Source: an uncultured Gemmatimonadota bacterium | Lineage (GTDB): Bacteria > JAAXHH01 | DNA length: 64,000 nt | Assembly (NCBI GenBank): GCA_951812955.1 | Contig: OX638340.1 | Location: 3,424,001 to 3,488,000, forward strand | Direction of reading: 5' to 3' | Shown: positions 35,849 through 49,536 of the stretch, piece by piece | How the letters are laid out: every line of letters starts with the position of its first letter | How positions within the stretch are numbered: position 1 is the first letter of the stretch | The notes under the pieces: model-generated | What the model was told of the DNA's origin: nothing | Database searches by the model: none | What the model saw: only the letters and a program-made list of their open reading frames with translations | Program-made: the position numbers and the translations under genes

Positions 35849-35867
35849 GCTTCTGTCGCTCAGCGCT

Positions 35868-35952
35868 GCTCTGCGAGTCAGTTTTAAAACGCTCACTCCC
35901 GTCCTTGCGTCAACGGCTTGACTGCCCCCTCCACGCGTCCGAGCCTTATTCT
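35868..35952. repeat. ~85-bp copy of the 3' end of the small coiled-coil gene family, fused to a ctcgaacttttt promoter-element core
   Basis: gctctgcgagtcag...gctcactcccgtccttgcgtcaacggcttgactgccccctccacgcgtccgagcc aligns nearly base-for-base with 37833-37917 (the 3' coding end of the 37850..38227 minus gene) and partly with 49185-49230. It is followed by ttattctcgaacttttt. Confidence 0.7.
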
Positions 35953-36167
35953 CGAACTTTTTACGAAAACACGAAAAACACCCTTTGACATATACCTTTA
36001 TTTATCAGATATTTCACAATACCTCATGACGGAGTAATCATATCTCCGGAAGTATCCTTCGGTAAAGTAGGTAACACTCTTCCAGCCAACGGCTTTCCCA
36101 TCCTTACTAAAATCGTCAAATGGGCGTGTAGGTATAATCCCACATTGTCCCCTCCGAAAGGATTGTC

Positions 36168-37343
36168 ATGACACGCTTGTGTCTTAGACTCGTGTGCATT
36201 GCGTTACTGCCGGCATCCCTGTTTGTGCTTTCCACCTGCGGCAAGGATAGTTCCACCGCCCCAAGCGCTCCAACACCCCCTGCCCCGGTACCCGCCAGCA
36301 TCGAAATCACACCGGCGTCCGCTACGTTGAACGCCATCGATCAGACCGTTCAGTTGGCCCCAATGGTACTTGACGAGAATGGTGCTGAGATCGCCGATGC
36401 TTCGGTTACGTGGACTAGTGGCGCCGTGGACGTTGCGACGGTTAACGATCAAGGCCTGGTCACGGCGGTCAACAACGGGTCCGCGGTGATCACAGCACAG
36501 TCGGGCAGTCTTTCGGCATCGGCGAGTATCACCGTCTCGCAGGTGCCGGTCCGTATCGTAATCGAGATCCCGACCACGGGCCGGCTCATGCAGACGGACA
36601 CGGGCCAGAACATACTGGTAGCCACGGTACAGGATAGAAACGGACATCCGGTGGCCGGAGCGGAAGTGACATGGTCGAGCAGCGATGAATCCGTAGCGAC
36701 CGTCAGCGATCAAGGAGTGGTAAACGAGGTCTCGAGCGGGAGAACTCAGATCACAGCCCGATCGGGAGACCTGTCAGACTCGGTTAATTATGGTGTCTCG
36801 GCAAGGATTGCACTGGCCAGGTTGTATGAGGCGACAAATGGTCCGGATTGGACACAAAATACGAACTGGTTGACTGATGCACCGGTGGAAGAATGGCACG
36901 GTGTTACGGTCGGCTTGTTTGGACAGCTTACGATACTGAACCTGAACAATAACAACCTGGGTGGTTCGATTCCGATGGATGTGGGACAACTGTGGCCTCT
37001 TGAAGAACTGAATCTGGGATCCAATCGGATATCGGGCGAGATTCCCGCAACGATAGGAAAGCTGGAATATCTCGGCAAACTGAACCTGAGCGACAACCAG
37101 TTGTCAGGTGAGATACCGGCCGAACTTGGTTACCTTGCTAACCTCCGGGGTTTATTCCTACAAGACAATGAATCATTGAGCGGACCTCTGCCTGATTCGT
37201 TTACGAATCTCGAGCTTCAAACCCTGAACCTGGATGGAACAGAGCTTTGCGTGCCGGCCAGCTCGGAGTTCCAGACCTGGATCGAAGGGATTGAAAACGT
37301 AACCGCTTCCCCGTGCCCCAATCCGGAGACGGAAGTCCCCTGA
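36168..37343 (+). CDS. surface lipoprotein: 2x Big_2 (bacterial Ig-like) domains + plant-type LRR module (LRR paralog 1)
   Basis: Lipobox LFVLSTCGKDS. Pro-rich linker. Big_2 motifs (ASATLNAIDQTVQL...VTWTSGAVDVATVNDQGLVTAVNNGSAVITAQSG). LRRNT-like cap (LYEATNGPDWTQNTNWLTDAPVEEWHGVT). LxxLxLxxNxLSGxIPxxLG repeats. Cys-containing C-terminal cap (GTELCVPASSEFQTWIEGIENVTASPCP). Confidence 0.8.
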   Translation: MTRLCLRLVCIALLPASLFVLSTCGKDSSTAPSAPTPPAPVPASIEITPASATLNAIDQTVQLAPMVLDENGAEIADASVTWTSGAVDVATVNDQGLVTAVNNGSAVITAQSGSLSASASITVSQVPVRIVIEIPTTGRLMQTDTGQNILVATVQDRNGHPVAGAEVTWSSSDESVATVSDQGVVNEVSSGRTQITARSGDLSDSVNYGVSARIALARLYEATNGPDWTQNTNWLTDAPVEEWHGVTVGLFGQLTILNLNNNNLGGSIPMDVGQLWPLEELNLGSNRISGEIPATIGKLEYLGKLNLSDNQLSGEIPAELGYLANLRGLFLQDNESLSGPLPDSFTNLELQTLNLDGTELCVPASSEFQTWIEGIENVTASPCPNPETEVP

Positions 37344-37544
37344 CGGCACCTTACATTGTGGTCTGAGCTGGTTTTCCGAGTGAATTGAAGCGGGATACAC
37401 CGCGCACAAGCCGTTATTCATAGCGTACATCCTAGTAGTTACGGCAGTGAAAAGAACACAGACGGCGGCAAGCGCCTGGATGAATACGATCTGTTTCCGA
37501 ACACTCGAACTTCTCGCGACAATTAGATCTGCTCTTGCCCGTTG

Positions 37545-37790
37545 TTACTGCGTGTGCTCTCCGTGAACGCCGGCCGGGTGTTGACCTTTGACGTCCTGAT
37601 CTCCCAGGGTCTGGGGAGAATATGGCTACGCCAACCACAAACTGGTGCGCAGCCTGATTAAATCGCTCCGCCGCAAGATCGGTGACGACGCGCGCACTCC
37701 GGACTACATCCTCAACGTGCGCGGGGTCGGGTACCGAATGGCCCGGTCCGTGGAACTCAATGTGGAAACTCTAGCGCGGGATATCCCTGC
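37545..37790 (+). pseudogene. remnant of the C-terminal (OmpR-type wHTH) end of a paralogous all-in-one histidine-kinase regulator
   Basis: DNA aligns with 48556-48790 of the intact paralog (LRVLSVNAGRV..., ...LRRKIGDDARTPDYILNVRGVGYRMARSVELNVE) but carries a 2-nt deletion/frameshift and lacks everything upstream. Preceded at ~37440-37500 by a minus-strand fragment of the coiled-coil gene N-terminus. Confidence 0.6.
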
Positions 37791-48807: not shown

Positions 48808-48847
48808 GGCGCTCCGTGAGTCTGTAACGATTACAGATAAAGACTGG

Positions 48848-49093
48848 CTATCGTTCAAATATATGGTCCACCTTCTTTTCCAGTGTATCAAAACGCTTGT
48901 CCATACGTGTAAATCCAGCGTCAACCTTCTTTGCAAGATCGCCATGTCTTAATTCAACTGTCCTTATCCTTGTTCCGATTTTATCATGCGCTTCATCGGC
49001 ATTCGCCACGATGCGCTTTTCCATCGCATCGAGTGCTTCAATTAGCTCTTTCTTGGATACACTCGGTGGGCTACCCGGTCCACTATAAGCCAA
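48848..49093 (-). CDS. small coiled-coil protein (DUF1640-like N-terminal half, no TM)
   Basis: 81 aa. Heptad-rich (KELIEALDAMEKRIVANADEAHDKIGTRIRTVELRHGDLAKKVDAGFTRMDKRFDTLEKKVDHIF). Convergent with HK paralog 2. Related to the C-terminus of the 37850 product. Confidence 0.45.
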   Translation of the reverse strand: MAYSGPGSPPSVSKKELIEALDAMEKRIVANADEAHDKIGTRIRTVELRHGDLAKKVDAGFTRMDKRFDTLEKKVDHIFER

Positions 49094-49246
49094 TTCAATT
49101 CCCCTTTCTAACCAATGTATTTAAACAGGCATATATCGACACCATATCGGTATATGACATGTATATGCTACATAAGGAAATCAACTCTCCACGCGTTCGA
49201 GCCTTCTGTTCATTGCGTTGAATGATCAATATTCAACCCAGTTCGA

Positions 49247-49385
49247 CACACCTGTTATTGGTTATAGTCGGAATCCAATCCGGAATCTCGAACGTTTTTT
49301 AAAAATAATGTTAAAAAGTTCCGTTACCTCGTTCCTTCGTCCAAAGAACATCGGGCGAACATCCCGAATGAAGAATCAAGGCGCC
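49247..49385. repeat. copy G of the dispersed element (orphan LRR-gene leader) upstream of the thiolase gene, preceded at 49185-49230 by a coiled-coil-gene 3' fragment
   Basis: cctgttattggttatagtcggaatccaatccggaatctcgaacgttttttaaaaataatgttaaaaagttccgttacctcgttccttcgtccaaagaacatcgggcgaacatcc. Confidence 0.65.
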
Positions 49386-49536
49386 CCTTGATTCGTCCTC
49401 GTATATAGGATATTAATACCATAATATAGAGCACGCTCATCACAGTTGATCTCGCTCTGGCTAGCACGCTCATCACAGTTGAACTCGCACTGGCTATGTA
49501 CTCGAGATTCTGATCCGAGATAGAAAGGCACCCGAA

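What the first reader, a model, noticed from the sequence alone, without database searches (positions are those of the whole stretch)
35850..49400. Mosaic, repeatedly duplicated module: promoter-like element + Big_2/plant-LRR lipoprotein + all-in-one HK-wHTH regulator + convergent coiled-coil gene
The same building blocks recur three times in 13.5 kb in the same relative order, in various states of decay.
- Block (a): a ~100-bp AT-rich element, found at 35948, 38401-38735 (x4), 43826, 45765 and 49247. In three places it forms the promoter/leader/start (aaggattgtcATGACA) of an LRR lipoprotein gene. In two places it is an orphan leader whose ATG has decayed.
- Block (b): three paralogous lipoproteins with Big_2 and plant-type LRR domains (36168, 38924, 43943), with ~85% DNA identity over their 5' halves.
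- Block (c): the GAF-PAS-HK-REC-OmpR regulator, intact at 46414, plus a frameshifted C-terminal remnant at 37545-37790 exactly where a regulator would sit after LRR paralog 1.
- Block (d): small DUF1640-like coiled-coil genes convergent with the regulator (37850-38227, 48848-49093), plus fragments of them (35868-35952, ~37440-37500, 49185-49230).
This looks like a cassette (surface LRR receptor + cytoplasmic one-component HK regulator + coiled-coil membrane protein) amplified by unequal recombination. That is the signature of a variable, fast-evolving surface or sensing system, not ordinary housekeeping DNA. I know of no described system with this composition.
Basis: seen in the sequence. Interest (0 to 1): 0.8.

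Follow-up and report, generated by a model that had tools for sequence, protein, structure and literature searches.

The report
Variable LRR-lipoprotein gene island
This stretch is a rearrangement-prone gene island in an uncultured Latescibacterota bacterium, where surface-type leucine-rich-repeat lipoprotein genes and their neighbours have been duplicated, truncated, deleted and swapped between relatives; it is a well-dissected example of a familiar kind of variable surface-protein locus, not a new signalling system.

Summary
The repeats are real: three Big_2/plant-type-LRR lipoprotein paralogs, one intact soluble GAF-PAS-HK-REC-wHTH regulator plus a frameshifted 3' remnant, one intact membrane coiled-coil gene (cc1) plus fragments, and about eight copies of an AT-rich element.

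Some details were wrong:
- DNA identity between the LRR genes is 70-81%, not 85%.
- The second 'coiled-coil' gene (48848-49093) is unrelated to cc1.
- The 'orphan leaders' are not decayed LRR starts. The element is the conserved upstream region of cc1.

About ten related genomes (NCBI label Candidatus Latescibacterota) have the same interval between an acyl-CoA synthetase gene and a thiolase gene. It holds 0-4 LRR genes, 0-2 cc1 genes and an intact, decayed or absent regulator, in different orders and orientations. The unit [element - LRR - regulator stub - cc1] is also duplicated in relatives.

Deletion junctions show microhomology. A co-occurring strain differs by a 2-kb indel. One LRR block was recently exchanged between lineages. 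The LRR2/LRR3 duplication is old (dS about 0.5) and under purifying selection.

Regulator homologues elsewhere have unrelated neighbours.

Verdict: a hypervariable paralog island. The cassette shape comes from segmental duplication, and an obligate three-part system is not supported.

The parts
33527..35848 (+). Acyl-CoA synthetase gene, conserved left border of the island
   Evidence: Pfam AMP-binding/ACAS_N. Present at the left of the island in L002-L006, L008, L037 and L039.
35868..35945 (-). 3' fragment of a cc1 copy (last 53 nt of CDS plus 25 nt downstream)
   Evidence: 81% to 37825-37902, E 3e-13. The same fragment lies next to the synthetase gene in L002, L003, L005/6 and L037.
35947..36167 (+). 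Partial element (TATTCTCGAACTTTTT...) plus the LRR1 upstream region and RBS
   Evidence: Repeat family D17. Exact CTCGAACTTTTT at 35951. 89% identical to L005 3521-3750.
36168..37343 (+). LRR1: signal peptide with Cys, 2 Big_2 domains, short plant-type LRR domain (391 aa)
   Evidence: Pfam and alignment. Orthologs in L005 and L037 have dS only 0.06-0.08 against 0.2-0.4 in flanking genes.
37430..37515 (-). 5' fragment of a cc1 copy, followed by a scrap of the element (CTCGAACTT at 37504)
   Evidence: 75% over 71 nt and 90% over 40 nt to 38152-38222. Motif hit at 37504.
37545..37790 (+). Frameshifted remnant of the regulator's winged-helix C-terminus
   Evidence: 82% to 48556-48777. Two tblastn pieces in different frames and frame translations. 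The same stub follows LRR genes in L039 and L037.
37850..38227 (-). cc1: intact 125-aa protein with an N-terminal TM helix and 11-residue (33-nt) repeats
   Evidence: Translation, KD maximum 2.9, TRF 33-nt x3.8. The family has only 48 members.
38229..38394 (.). cc1 5' region with 13-nt (x4.7) and 14-nt (x3.6) tandem repeats
   Evidence: TRF. Equivalent short repeats occur upstream of cc1 in L005, L037 and L038.
38395..38790 (+). Four diverged tandem copies (A-D, ~92-nt period) of the AT-rich element
   Evidence: the repeat finder D10/D14. nhmmer E 9e-19, 3e-4, 9e-16 and 1e-5.
38924..43750 (+). LRR2: lipoprotein-type signal, 3 Big_2 domains, two LRR domains, C-terminal metzincin/M66-like protease (1608 aa)
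   Evidence: Pfam including Peptidase_M66 at 23.6 bits. HELGHNMGLLH at aa 1368. Weak ADAM17 match. Same architecture in L002, L005 and L039.
43819..43942 (+). Element copy E, joined directly to the LRR3 RBS and start codon
43943..45542 (+). LRR3 (523 aa; stop at 45514) plus a 3' tail that still aligns with in-frame LRR2 sequence
   Evidence: 77-81% to LRR2. A 2-nt indel creates the stop at the boundary of LRR domain 1. dS 0.51, dN/dS 0.28 against LRR2.
45618..45725 (+). 35-codon stub of an outer-membrane-protein-like gene that is full length (387 aa) in a strain variant
   Evidence: L001 carries 2,028 extra bases here. The junction has GTTCC microhomology.
45724..45879 (+). Element copy F, with no adjacent cc1
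   Evidence: 77% to 49208-49364, E 4e-25. nhmmer E 2e-18.
45988..46168 (-). Deletion scar holding a remnant of an inverted LRR gene's signal peptide (FVLAACGKDS encoded at 46004-46035)
   Evidence: Inverted repeat I1. In L005 an intact inverted LRR-M66 gene diverges from the regulator at this place, and L037 keeps a 663-aa inverted copy.
46414..48807 (+). Intact soluble one-polypeptide two-component regulator (GAF-PAS-HisKA-HATPase-REC-wHTH, 797 aa)
   Evidence: Pfam, catalytic motifs and no TM. Orthologs at 82-86% in seven related assemblies.
48848..49093 (-). cc2: small gene convergent with the regulator; not related to cc1
   Evidence: No Pfam or NCBIfam hit. No BLASTP similarity to cc1. 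Conserved in L001 and L037.
49185..49364 (+). cc1 3' scrap joined through GTTCATTGC microhomology to cc1-upstream sequence and element copy G
   Evidence: An element at this thiolase-side position also occurs in L005, L007, L037 and L001.
49537..50658 (+). Thiolase gene, conserved right border of the island
   Evidence: Pfam, synteny.
32307..32345 (+). Diverged extra copy of the element core, upstream of another small minus-strand operon (31757-32250)
   Evidence: Local alignment score 29; 0 of 500 shuffles reach it. A similar sequence lies at the same place in L002. Not detected by nhmmer.

Best explanation
Window 35850-49400 is a lineage-specific hypervariable gene island. It lies between a conserved acyl-CoA synthetase gene and a conserved thiolase gene in an uncultured bacterium whose closest assemblies are labelled Candidatus Latescibacterota.

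Cargo: a family of Big_2 + plant-type-LRR lipoprotein-like genes. The long form ends in a metzincin protease. The short forms (LRR1, LRR3) are truncated derivatives that end after the first LRR domain.

How the pattern arose: the island grows and shrinks by segmental duplication of a unit that reads [cc1-upstream element > LRR gene > regulator (or its 3' stub) < cc1]. Other processes then act on it: recombination between paralogs, microhomology-mediated deletions, inversion, and homologous exchange of blocks between related lineages. The repeated 'cassette' is a by-product of which neighbours lay inside the duplicated segment.

The element: a conserved DNA-level control region that natively lies upstream of cc1. 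LRR genes sit on its far side.

Shown here: homology and order of the parts, variation among genomes and between co-occurring strains, the deletion junctions, the age of and selection on the paralogs, and the regulator's dispensability in cis.

Inferred only: the LRR proteins are cell-envelope or surface binders of host or matrix ligands (eukaryote-like proteins); the soluble regulator controls nearby promoters; the element is a promoter or operator.
For: 1. Homology of all blocks.
2. Locus content in relatives:
 - L008: synthetase - 1.3 kb - regulator - thiolase, with no LRR and no cc1.
 - L002: regulator, cc1, element, LRR-M66, cc1, element.
 - L005: LRR, collagen-like gene, inverted LRR-M66, regulator, cc1.
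 - L037 (93% DNA identity to the window): colinear to 38250, then a different 3-kb core; the regulator is reduced to scraps.
 - L039: four LRR genes, a regulator decayed into four pieces, and two further regulator stubs each following an LRR gene.
 - L038: cc1 and at least three LRR genes, no regulator within 10 kb.
3. Strain variant in the same sample: a 2,028-bp indel with GTTCC microhomology. Element copy G is a cc1 internal deletion through GTTCATTGC.
4. Truncation origin of the short forms: a 2-nt indel makes the stop, and the LRR3 3' tail still aligns to in-frame LRR2. L001 keeps a C-terminal LRR-M66 remnant.
5. A chimeric LRR gene in L039: 5' part 85% LRR1-like, 3' part 85% LRR2-like.
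6. Exchange between lineages: LRR1 dS is 0.06-0.08 against 0.2-0.4 in flanking genes, and the identity profile is mosaic.
7. Old, maintained paralogs: LRR2/LRR3 dS 0.51, dN/dS 0.28.
8. The element lies 50-230 nt upstream of cc1 in L002 (twice), L005, L037, L038 and L039. It has no consensus RNA structure on either strand and no Rfam match.
9. No transposase or integrase was found among the large ORFs of the window scanned against Pfam.
10. Sponge-associated Latescibacterota MAGs are reported to carry LRR and NHL eukaryote-like proteins (PMC12993501).
Against: - The order regulator-cc1-element-LRR recurs in at least three genomes, and cc1 is convergent with the regulator in L002, L004 and L005. 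A functional link is therefore not excluded.
- At a second locus (between the NHL and amidohydrolase genes) the window has a regulator paralog where L002 has a cc1-like gene. This hints at a recurrent regulator/cc1 pair.
- The central 38250-45596 segment of the window has no independent assembly covering it.
- Host association, lipoprotein status and surface exposure are inferred, not tested.
- No recombination-detection statistics were run.
- The dN/dS of 0.74-0.80 for LRR1 rests on few substitutions.
Confidence: 0.65

Rival explanations
1. A functional three-part sensing cassette. An envelope LRR lipoprotein binds an external ligand, the membrane coiled-coil protein cc1 relays the signal across the membrane, and the soluble HK-REC-wHTH protein converts it into transcription from the shared element. 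The whole unit is amplified to diversify specificity.
For: - The regulator has no TM segment, so it would need a membrane partner.
- cc1 has one TM helix and lies tail-to-tail with the regulator in L002, L004, L005 and at the remnant in the window.
- The order regulator-cc1-element-LRR is shared by the window and L002.
- A possible second regulator/cc1 locus exists.
- The element core contains spaced GRAATC-like direct repeats, which would suit an OmpR-type binder (sequence reading).
Against: - LRR and cc1 persist where the regulator is decayed or missing (L037, L038, L039).
- The regulator persists without LRR or cc1 (L008; L007 has none between the regulator and the thiolase gene).
- The intact regulator in the window is followed by the unrelated cc2, not cc1.
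- Regulator homologues at 65-70% identity and the window paralogs at 26211 and 62881 have no LRR, cc1 or element nearby.
- All co-localisation comes from one orthologous locus.
Confidence: 0.15
2. A programmed antigenic-variation system. One or a few expressed LRR genes would be rewritten by gene conversion from partial, silent copies, as in Borrelia vls or Neisseria pilS.
For: - Partial LRR fragments exist: 46004-46035, the tail at 45515-45542, and the C-terminal remnant in L001.
- A chimeric LRR gene occurs in L039.
- Differences between LRR2 and LRR3 concentrate at variable repeat positions.
Against: - The fragments are few, short and decayed.
- All three LRR genes have their own start, RBS and upstream region.
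- The paralogs are only 70-81% identical, with dS about 0.5, so there is no sign of ongoing conversion.
- No recombinase or invertase gene and no flanking inverted repeats were found.
Confidence: 0.05
3. The AT-rich element is a small non-autonomous mobile element (MITE-like) or a structured RNA gene that has spread through the locus and seeded the rearrangements.
For: About eight copies lie within 14 kb and a diverged copy at 32307. The element is AT-rich and often sits at rearrangement borders.
Against: - No terminal inverted repeats or target-site duplications were seen.
- The copies are always in the same orientation and the same position relative to cc1 or its remnants, in every genome.
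- nhmmer found no copy with E below 1 elsewhere in the 64-kb window or in the three unrelated regulator loci L034-L036.
- No consensus fold and no Rfam hit.
- The single exact match in the JGI metagenome scan was an unrelated chance hit.
Confidence: 0.05
4. An assembly artefact: repeats in a metagenome assembly were mis-joined, creating apparent duplications.
For: The window comes from a metagenome assembly. A second contig from the same sample ends inside the region. No independent contig spans 38250-45596, and LRR3 was not found on record as an exact protein.
Against: - The paralogs are only 70-81% identical, too divergent to be collapsed or confused by long accurate reads.
- L037, from another sample, is colinear with 31864-38250 including all fragments.
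- L001 is colinear with 45710-51090.
- Similar multi-copy arrangements occur in several independent assemblies.
Confidence: 0.03

Closest known systems
Eukaryote-like (LRR, NHL, ankyrin) protein families of sponge and coral symbionts
   Same: Expanded repeat-protein genes in host-associated uncultured bacteria. Sponge-associated Latescibacterota MAGs are reported to carry LRR and NHL proteins (PMC12993501), and both kinds occur in this window.
   Different: Published work counts domains per genome. It does not describe this locus, its duplicated unit, the metzincin fusion or the linked cc1/element. Host association of this genome is inferred from the names of related MAGs, not shown.
Internalin-type and BspA/Lig-type surface LRR/Ig-like adhesin gene families (Listeria inl clusters, Tannerella BspA, Leptospira Lig and LRR proteins); comparison from my own knowledge
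   Same: LRR domains are combined with bacterial Ig-like domains on envelope-anchored proteins. The genes are multi-copy, and clusters differ between strains through duplication and recombination between paralogs.
   Different: Here the LRRs are the 24-residue plant-specific class. The best but sub-threshold NCBIfam matches are XopAE, XopAC, XopL and LIC_11051. The anchor is a lipoprotein-type signal, not LPXTG or a T9SS domain. The long form carries a metzincin protease.
Bacteroides hybrid two-component systems (HTCS)
   Same: Histidine kinase, receiver and DNA-binding output lie in one polypeptide (PMC11253607; Pfam).
   Different: HTCS are membrane proteins with a periplasmic sugar sensor and an AraC-type output, and they sit next to polysaccharide utilisation loci. 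This protein is soluble, senses through GAF and PAS domains, has an OmpR-type winged helix and has no PUL nearby.
Plant LRR resistance and receptor gene clusters (for example RPP8) evolving by tandem duplication and exchange between paralogs
   Same: An evolutionary analogue: LRR genes in clusters, with copy-number variation, truncated copies and chimeras (PMC6771003, listed, abstract only; here).
   Different: Different kingdom and protein architecture. The comparison is about how the locus evolves, not about homology of the locus.
StcE/M66 and adamalysin-type metzincin proteases
   Same: LRR2 has HExxHxxGxxH, reaches the Pfam M66 cut-off (23.6 against 20.6 bits), and aligns weakly with the ADAM17 active site.
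   Different: Similarity is limited to the active-site region. The Met-turn, the fold and the activity were not tested. The LRR/Big_2 N-terminal targeting region is not that of StcE.

Membership tests
Plant-specific (24-residue) LRR class | Tandem 24-residue repeats matching LxxLxLxxNxLSGxIPxxLGxLxxL | tested here: met
   Nine consecutive 24-mers of LRR2 and LRR3 fit the pattern: invariant N at position 6, and G10/I12/P13/G17 kept in all but one or two repeats. 72-nt DNA periodicity.
Bacterial lipoprotein | Signal peptide ending in a lipobox [LVI][ASTVI][GAS]C | tested here: inconclusive
   A hydrophobic N-terminus is followed by LSTC or ITTC then GKDS. Thr at position -1 is atypical. The remnant at 46004 encodes the canonical LAAC. 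No lipoprotein predictor was available.
Peptidase M66 / metzincin | Zinc-binding HExxHxxGxxH motif and a family-level profile match | tested here: met
   HELGHNMGLLH at aa 1368. Pfam PF10462 scores 23.6 bits against a cut-off of 20.6.
Peptidase M66 / metzincin | Met-turn and metzincin fold | not tested
   No structure was predicted. The PDB sequence matches are only E 0.18-0.9.
Bacteroides-type hybrid two-component system | HK, REC and DNA-binding domain in one chain | tested here: met
   HisKA, HATPase_c, Response_reg and Trans_reg_C all score above their cut-offs.
Bacteroides-type hybrid two-component system | Membrane-spanning protein with periplasmic sensor; AraC-type HTH output | tested here: not met
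   The maximum 19-residue hydropathy is 1.23, so no TM segment. The sensor domains are GAF and PAS, and the output is OmpR-type Trans_reg_C.
DUF1640 / CCDC90-like (PF07798) | Profile score at or above the Pfam gathering threshold | tested here: not met
   cc1 scores 26.2 bits against a cut-off of 33.5. cc2 has no hit. cc1 and cc2 share no detectable similarity.
Cassette-based antigenic variation (vls/pilS type) | One expression site plus an array of promoterless, highly similar silent cassettes | tested here: not met
   All three LRR genes have starts and upstream regions. The fragments are few and decayed. Paralog identity is 70-81%.
MITE or other mobile element (for the AT-rich element) | Terminal inverted repeats, target-site duplications, dispersed copies | tested here: not met
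   No inverted repeats flank the copies. The copies are fixed in position and orientation relative to cc1. No transposase was found among the large window ORFs scanned against Pfam.
Structured cis-regulatory or small RNA (for the AT-rich element) | Conserved secondary structure with covariation, or an Rfam match | tested here: not met
   RNAalifold predicts zero pairs on both strands for 13 copies. No relevant Rfam hit.
Conserved functional gene cassette (LRR + regulator + cc1) | Co-occurrence of all three genes wherever any one occurs, including at non-orthologous loci | tested here: not met
   The components occur separately in L008, L037, L038 and L039, and at the regulator paralogs and homologues elsewhere.

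The most novel reading that the evidence does not exclude
The conserved ~45-nt core (TAGTCGGAGYCCAATCCGAAATCTCGAAC followed by a T-run) is the operator of a small regulon of membrane or coiled-coil proteins (cc1, cc2 and the XhlA-like pair at 31757-32250). The regulon is controlled by the abundant, uncharacterised family of soluble one-polypeptide HK-REC-wHTH regulators. LRR lipoprotein genes have repeatedly been captured on the far side of this bidirectional control region. The island would then be a recombination-driven device that places a changing set of host-binding LRR proteins under a single cytoplasmic sensor, which would be a new kind of variable envelope-sensing module in an uncultured symbiont phylum.
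Probability: 0.12. Interest if true: 0.65.

Novelty: new member of a known kind. Interest (0 to 1): 0.35.

Why it matters
This is a base-level reconstruction of how a repeat-protein (LRR) family diversifies in an uncultured Latescibacterota lineage. The processes seen are segmental duplication, truncation into shorter stand-alone genes, paralog chimeras, microhomology deletions and exchange of blocks between related lineages. Structural variants co-exist in one sample.

If these bacteria are animal symbionts, as the names of related MAGs and the literature suggest, the island is a candidate locus for host-specific adaptation and a marker for strain tracking.

It also flags three uncharacterised items worth testing:
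- a very large family of soluble all-in-one two-component regulators;
- a lineage-restricted membrane coiled-coil protein;
- a conserved DNA motif upstream of that protein.

It does not establish a new type of system.

Tried and rejected
1. RNA element: Rfam scan of 35000-50000 gave only one chance-level hit. RNAalifold on 13 element copies, both strands, predicted no pairs.
2. tRNA or integration site: no tRNA in the window.
3. Sigma-70 promoters and terminators: no enrichment over shuffles, and no consistent hexamers inside the element. My manual attempts to read ECF-type or Bacteroidetes-type promoters gave inconsistent spacing across copies and were dropped.
4. LexA-like CTGT-N8-ACAG palindrome: present only in copies A and C, not conserved. 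Rejected.
5. Mobile-element explanation: no transposase or integrase among the large ORFs scanned. No inverted repeats at the 2.9-kb regulator indel at 25960-28800.
6. cc2 as a cc1 paralog: rejected. tblastn of cc2 found only itself and its L001 ortholog.
7. My first view that the regulator is the invariant anchor of the locus: rejected after L037, L038 and L039.
8. My first view that copies F and G carry a cc1 3' fragment plus a decayed LRR leader: revised. G is a cc1 internal deletion, and the right flank is part of the cc1-upstream region.
9. Pattern scan of JGI metagenomes for the core: one unrelated chance match.
10. Exact-protein look-up of LRR3: not on record.
11. Literature searches found no description of this locus, of the regulator architecture as a family, or of the MAG Plut_88884.

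Full report
**What is in the sequence**

The interval 35850-49400 lies between an acyl-CoA synthetase gene (33527-35848) and a thiolase gene (49537-50658). Repeat finding and a self-BLAST of the whole window confirm extensive internal homology.

The three LRR genes:
- LRR1, 36168-37343, 391 aa.
- LRR2, 38924-43750, 1608 aa.
- LRR3, 43943-45514, 523 aa.
- All share a signal peptide ending in a Cys (..STC/TTC|GKDS), Big_2 domains and LRRs.
- The repeats are the 24-residue plant-specific type. The best NCBIfam matches, all below threshold, are XopAE, XopAC and XopL.
- DNA identity is 77-81% between LRR2 and LRR3, and 70-72% between LRR1 and either.
- LRR2 also has a C-terminal metzincin domain: HELGHNMGLLH, Pfam M66 at 23.6 bits against a cut-off of 20.6.

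The regulator:
- The 797-aa protein at 46414-48807 has GAF, PAS, HisKA, HATPase, REC and an OmpR-type winged helix.
- The H-box and the receiver Asp are intact, and there is no transmembrane segment.
- Its last ~80 codons recur, frameshifted, at 37545-37790 (82% DNA identity).

The small genes:
- cc1 (37850-38227, minus strand) encodes a 125-aa protein with an N-terminal TM helix and 11-residue repeats.
- cc1 fragments lie at 35868-35945, 37430-37500 and 49185-49215.
- The small gene at 48848-49093 (cc2) shows no similarity to cc1 and has no family hit.

**The AT-rich element**

Copies lie at 38395, 38488, 38579, 38673, 43819, 45724 and 49208, with a partial copy at 35947. There is also a scrap at 37504.

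Aligned with copies from relatives, the conserved core is TAGTCGGAGYCCAATCCGAAATCTCGAAC followed by a T-run.
- It has no consensus RNA structure on either strand.
- It has no Rfam match.
- It has no terminal inverted repeats.

In six related genomes the core lies 50-230 nt upstream of, and divergent from, every cc1 gene. This holds whatever gene sits on the other side: an LRR gene, a 173-aa gene or the thiolase gene. The element is therefore best read as part of the cc1 upstream control region.

The two 'orphan' copies (45724, 49208) have a right flank that is conserved, in the same form without an ATG, next to an intact cc1 in L037. They are not decayed LRR leaders.

Copy G is what remains after a cc1 internal deletion through a 9-nt microhomology.

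A diverged copy of the core lies outside the finding at 32307-32345, upstream of another small minus-strand operon. One of its products is a C-terminally anchored, XhlA-like protein. nhmmer did not detect this copy, so it is a weak lead.

**Who it is**

The regulator's closest relatives (82-86% identity) come from assemblies labelled Candidatus Latescibacterota, including isolate Plut_88884 and a 3.83-Mb closed MAG. More distant homologues are labelled Gemmatimonadota. Sponge-associated Latescibacterota MAGs are reported to carry LRR and NHL eukaryote-like proteins (PMC12993501). Host association of this genome is an inference.

**Comparative anatomy of the locus**

The synthetase-thiolase interval differs in every genome examined.

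| Locus | Content, read from the synthetase side |
|---|---|
| L008 | 1.3 kb of other sequence, regulator; no LRR, no cc1 |
| L007 | contig starts upstream of the regulator; regulator, element, thiolase |
| L002/L003 | BPSS1860-like gene, regulator, cc1, element, LRR-M66 (1559 aa), cc1, element, 173-aa gene; also a wHTH scrap upstream of the LRR gene |
| L005/L006 | LRR (378 aa), collagen-like gene, inverted LRR-M66, regulator, cc1, element |
| L004 | amine oxidase genes, regulator, short cc1, a second inverted regulator, two LRR genes |
| L037 | colinear with the window from 31864 to 38250, then one element copy, a different 3-kb core with an inverted 663-aa LRR-M66, and only scraps of the main regulator |
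| L039 | inverted LRR-M66, regulator in four decayed pieces, LRR1-like gene, regulator stub, cc1, element, chimeric LRR gene, regulator stub, LRR-M66 (1644 aa) |
| L038 | (thiolase side) 173-aa gene, cc1, STAS gene, at least three LRR genes, no regulator within 10 kb |

L037 is about 93% identical to the window at the DNA level.

The regulator stub is part of the duplicated unit. But the three components are gained and lost independently.

**How it changes**

1. Truncation. LRR1 and LRR3 stop at the boundary between the first LRR domain and the N-cap of the second, through a 2-nt indel. The LRR3 3' tail still aligns with in-frame LRR2 sequence. The short genes therefore derive from the long form.
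2. Microhomology deletions.
 - A second contig from the same sample (L001, 97% identical) has 2,028 extra bases at window 45714.
 - They carry a 387-aa outer-membrane-protein-like gene and a C-terminal LRR-M66 remnant.
 - The window keeps only a 35-codon stub, and the junction is GTTCC.
3. Paralog chimeras (L039).
4. Exchange between lineages. LRR1 and its surroundings (35500-37600) are far more similar to L005 and L037 (dS 0.06-0.08) than the flanking core genes are (dS 0.2-0.4). Identity along the region is mosaic.
5. Age. LRR2 and LRR3 differ by dS 0.51 with dN/dS 0.28. That is about as old as the split from L002 and L005 (regulator dS 0.53). These are long-maintained genes, not a fresh amplification. 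Their differences lie mostly at variable repeat positions.

No transposase, integrase or invertase was found among the large ORFs of the 64-kb window that were scanned.

**Is it a functional cassette?**

The regulator family is very large: more than 7,900 hits at E below 1e-20, and all of the top 120 have the same seven-domain architecture.
- Members 65-70% identical sit beside restriction-modification, copper-oxidase, topoisomerase or transposase genes. None has LRR or cc1 neighbours.
- The window has two further paralogs, at 26211-28613 and from 62881, with no LRR, cc1 or element.
- The first of these is a 2.9-kb insertion or deletion relative to L037 and L004.

cc1, by contrast, is a tiny lineage-restricted family of 48 proteins.

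All co-localisation evidence comes from one orthologous locus, and the parts occur without each other. An obligate three-part system is therefore not supported. It is not excluded either:
- cc1 is tail-to-tail with the regulator in several genomes.
- L002 has a cc1-like gene exactly where the window has the 26211 regulator.

**Conclusion**

The best explanation is a hypervariable paralog island for LRR (eukaryote-like) envelope proteins. It evolves by segmental duplication, illegitimate deletion and homologous exchange, and the regulator and cc1 travel as neighbours.

This is a new, well-resolved member of a known kind of locus. The open, more novel possibility is that the conserved element and the soluble all-in-one regulator form a real control circuit for small membrane proteins and the captured LRR genes.

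Noticed in passing
window 25960-28800 (regulator paralog 26211-28613): A second GAF-PAS-HK-REC-wHTH gene lies between the NHL-repeat and amidohydrolase genes. Those two genes are adjacent in L004 and L037. In L002 they are separated only by a cc1-like 161-aa gene. So this is a 2.9-kb gain or loss between genomes ~93% identical. No inverted repeats or mobile genes lie at its borders.
   Followed up: partly
window 62881-64000 and 58693-62154: A third regulator paralog starts at 62881 and runs off the window. It follows a 1153-aa secreted protein with a Calx-beta-like domain and an internal 563-nt repeat (59564-60126 and 60155-60717). No cc1 or element is nearby.
   Followed up: partly
loci L034, L035, L036: The soluble all-in-one regulator family has more than 7,900 database hits. 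Members 65-70% identical occur in unrelated gene contexts, often beside transposases or restriction-modification genes, and several genomes hold multiple copies. This suggests a patchily inserted, possibly horizontally spread family with no described function.
   Followed up: no
window 31757-32345: Two small minus-strand genes lie between the epimerase and lactonase genes: one of 89 aa, and one of 75 aa with a C-terminal TM helix, XhlA-like in L002. A diverged copy of the element core (32307-32345) lies 55-95 nt upstream of them. L002 has a similar sequence at the same place.
   Followed up: partly
window 35500-37600 versus L005 and L037: The LRR1 block has synonymous divergence of 0.06-0.08 to two other lineages, while flanking core genes show 0.2-0.4. 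This implies recent exchange of the block between lineages. dN/dS is 0.74-0.80, based on few changes.
   Followed up: partly
window 37931-38054, 38229-38289, 38332-38382: cc1 carries a 33-nt coding repeat (x3.8). Its 5' region has 13-nt (x4.7, duplicating the RBS-like GAGGAACG) and 14-nt (x3.6) repeats. cc1 homologues range from 70 to 160 aa, so repeat number probably varies.
   Followed up: partly
window 25955-26082, 24941-25051, 13242-13345, 49430-49496: Short intergenic tandem repeats (34-66 nt units, 90-97% identical) lie near the NHL gene, the first regulator paralog and the thiolase gene.
   Followed up: no
window 13353-13430 and 22948-23026: A 79-nt inverted repeat pair (78% identical) lies 9.5 kb apart, far from the finding.
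   Followed up: no
window 33550-33654 (start of the acyl-CoA synthetase gene): A 15-nt repeat (x5), rich in Pro, Asp and Ala codons, lies near the N-terminus. The synthetase varies from 729 to 806 aa among relatives, and its identity to relatives is strongly mosaic (70-98% per 300 nt).
   Followed up: no
window 55067-58452; L001 11400-13150: Collagen-triple-helix repeat proteins and a trypsin-like protease with a collagen repeat lie downstream of the LptD gene. The repeat region differs in length between the window and the strain variant L001.
   Followed up: no
L001 22-1185: A 387-aa protein with a signal peptide and no family hit, possibly an outer-membrane beta-barrel, is present in the strain variant. 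In the window it is reduced to a 35-codon stub.
   Followed up: partly
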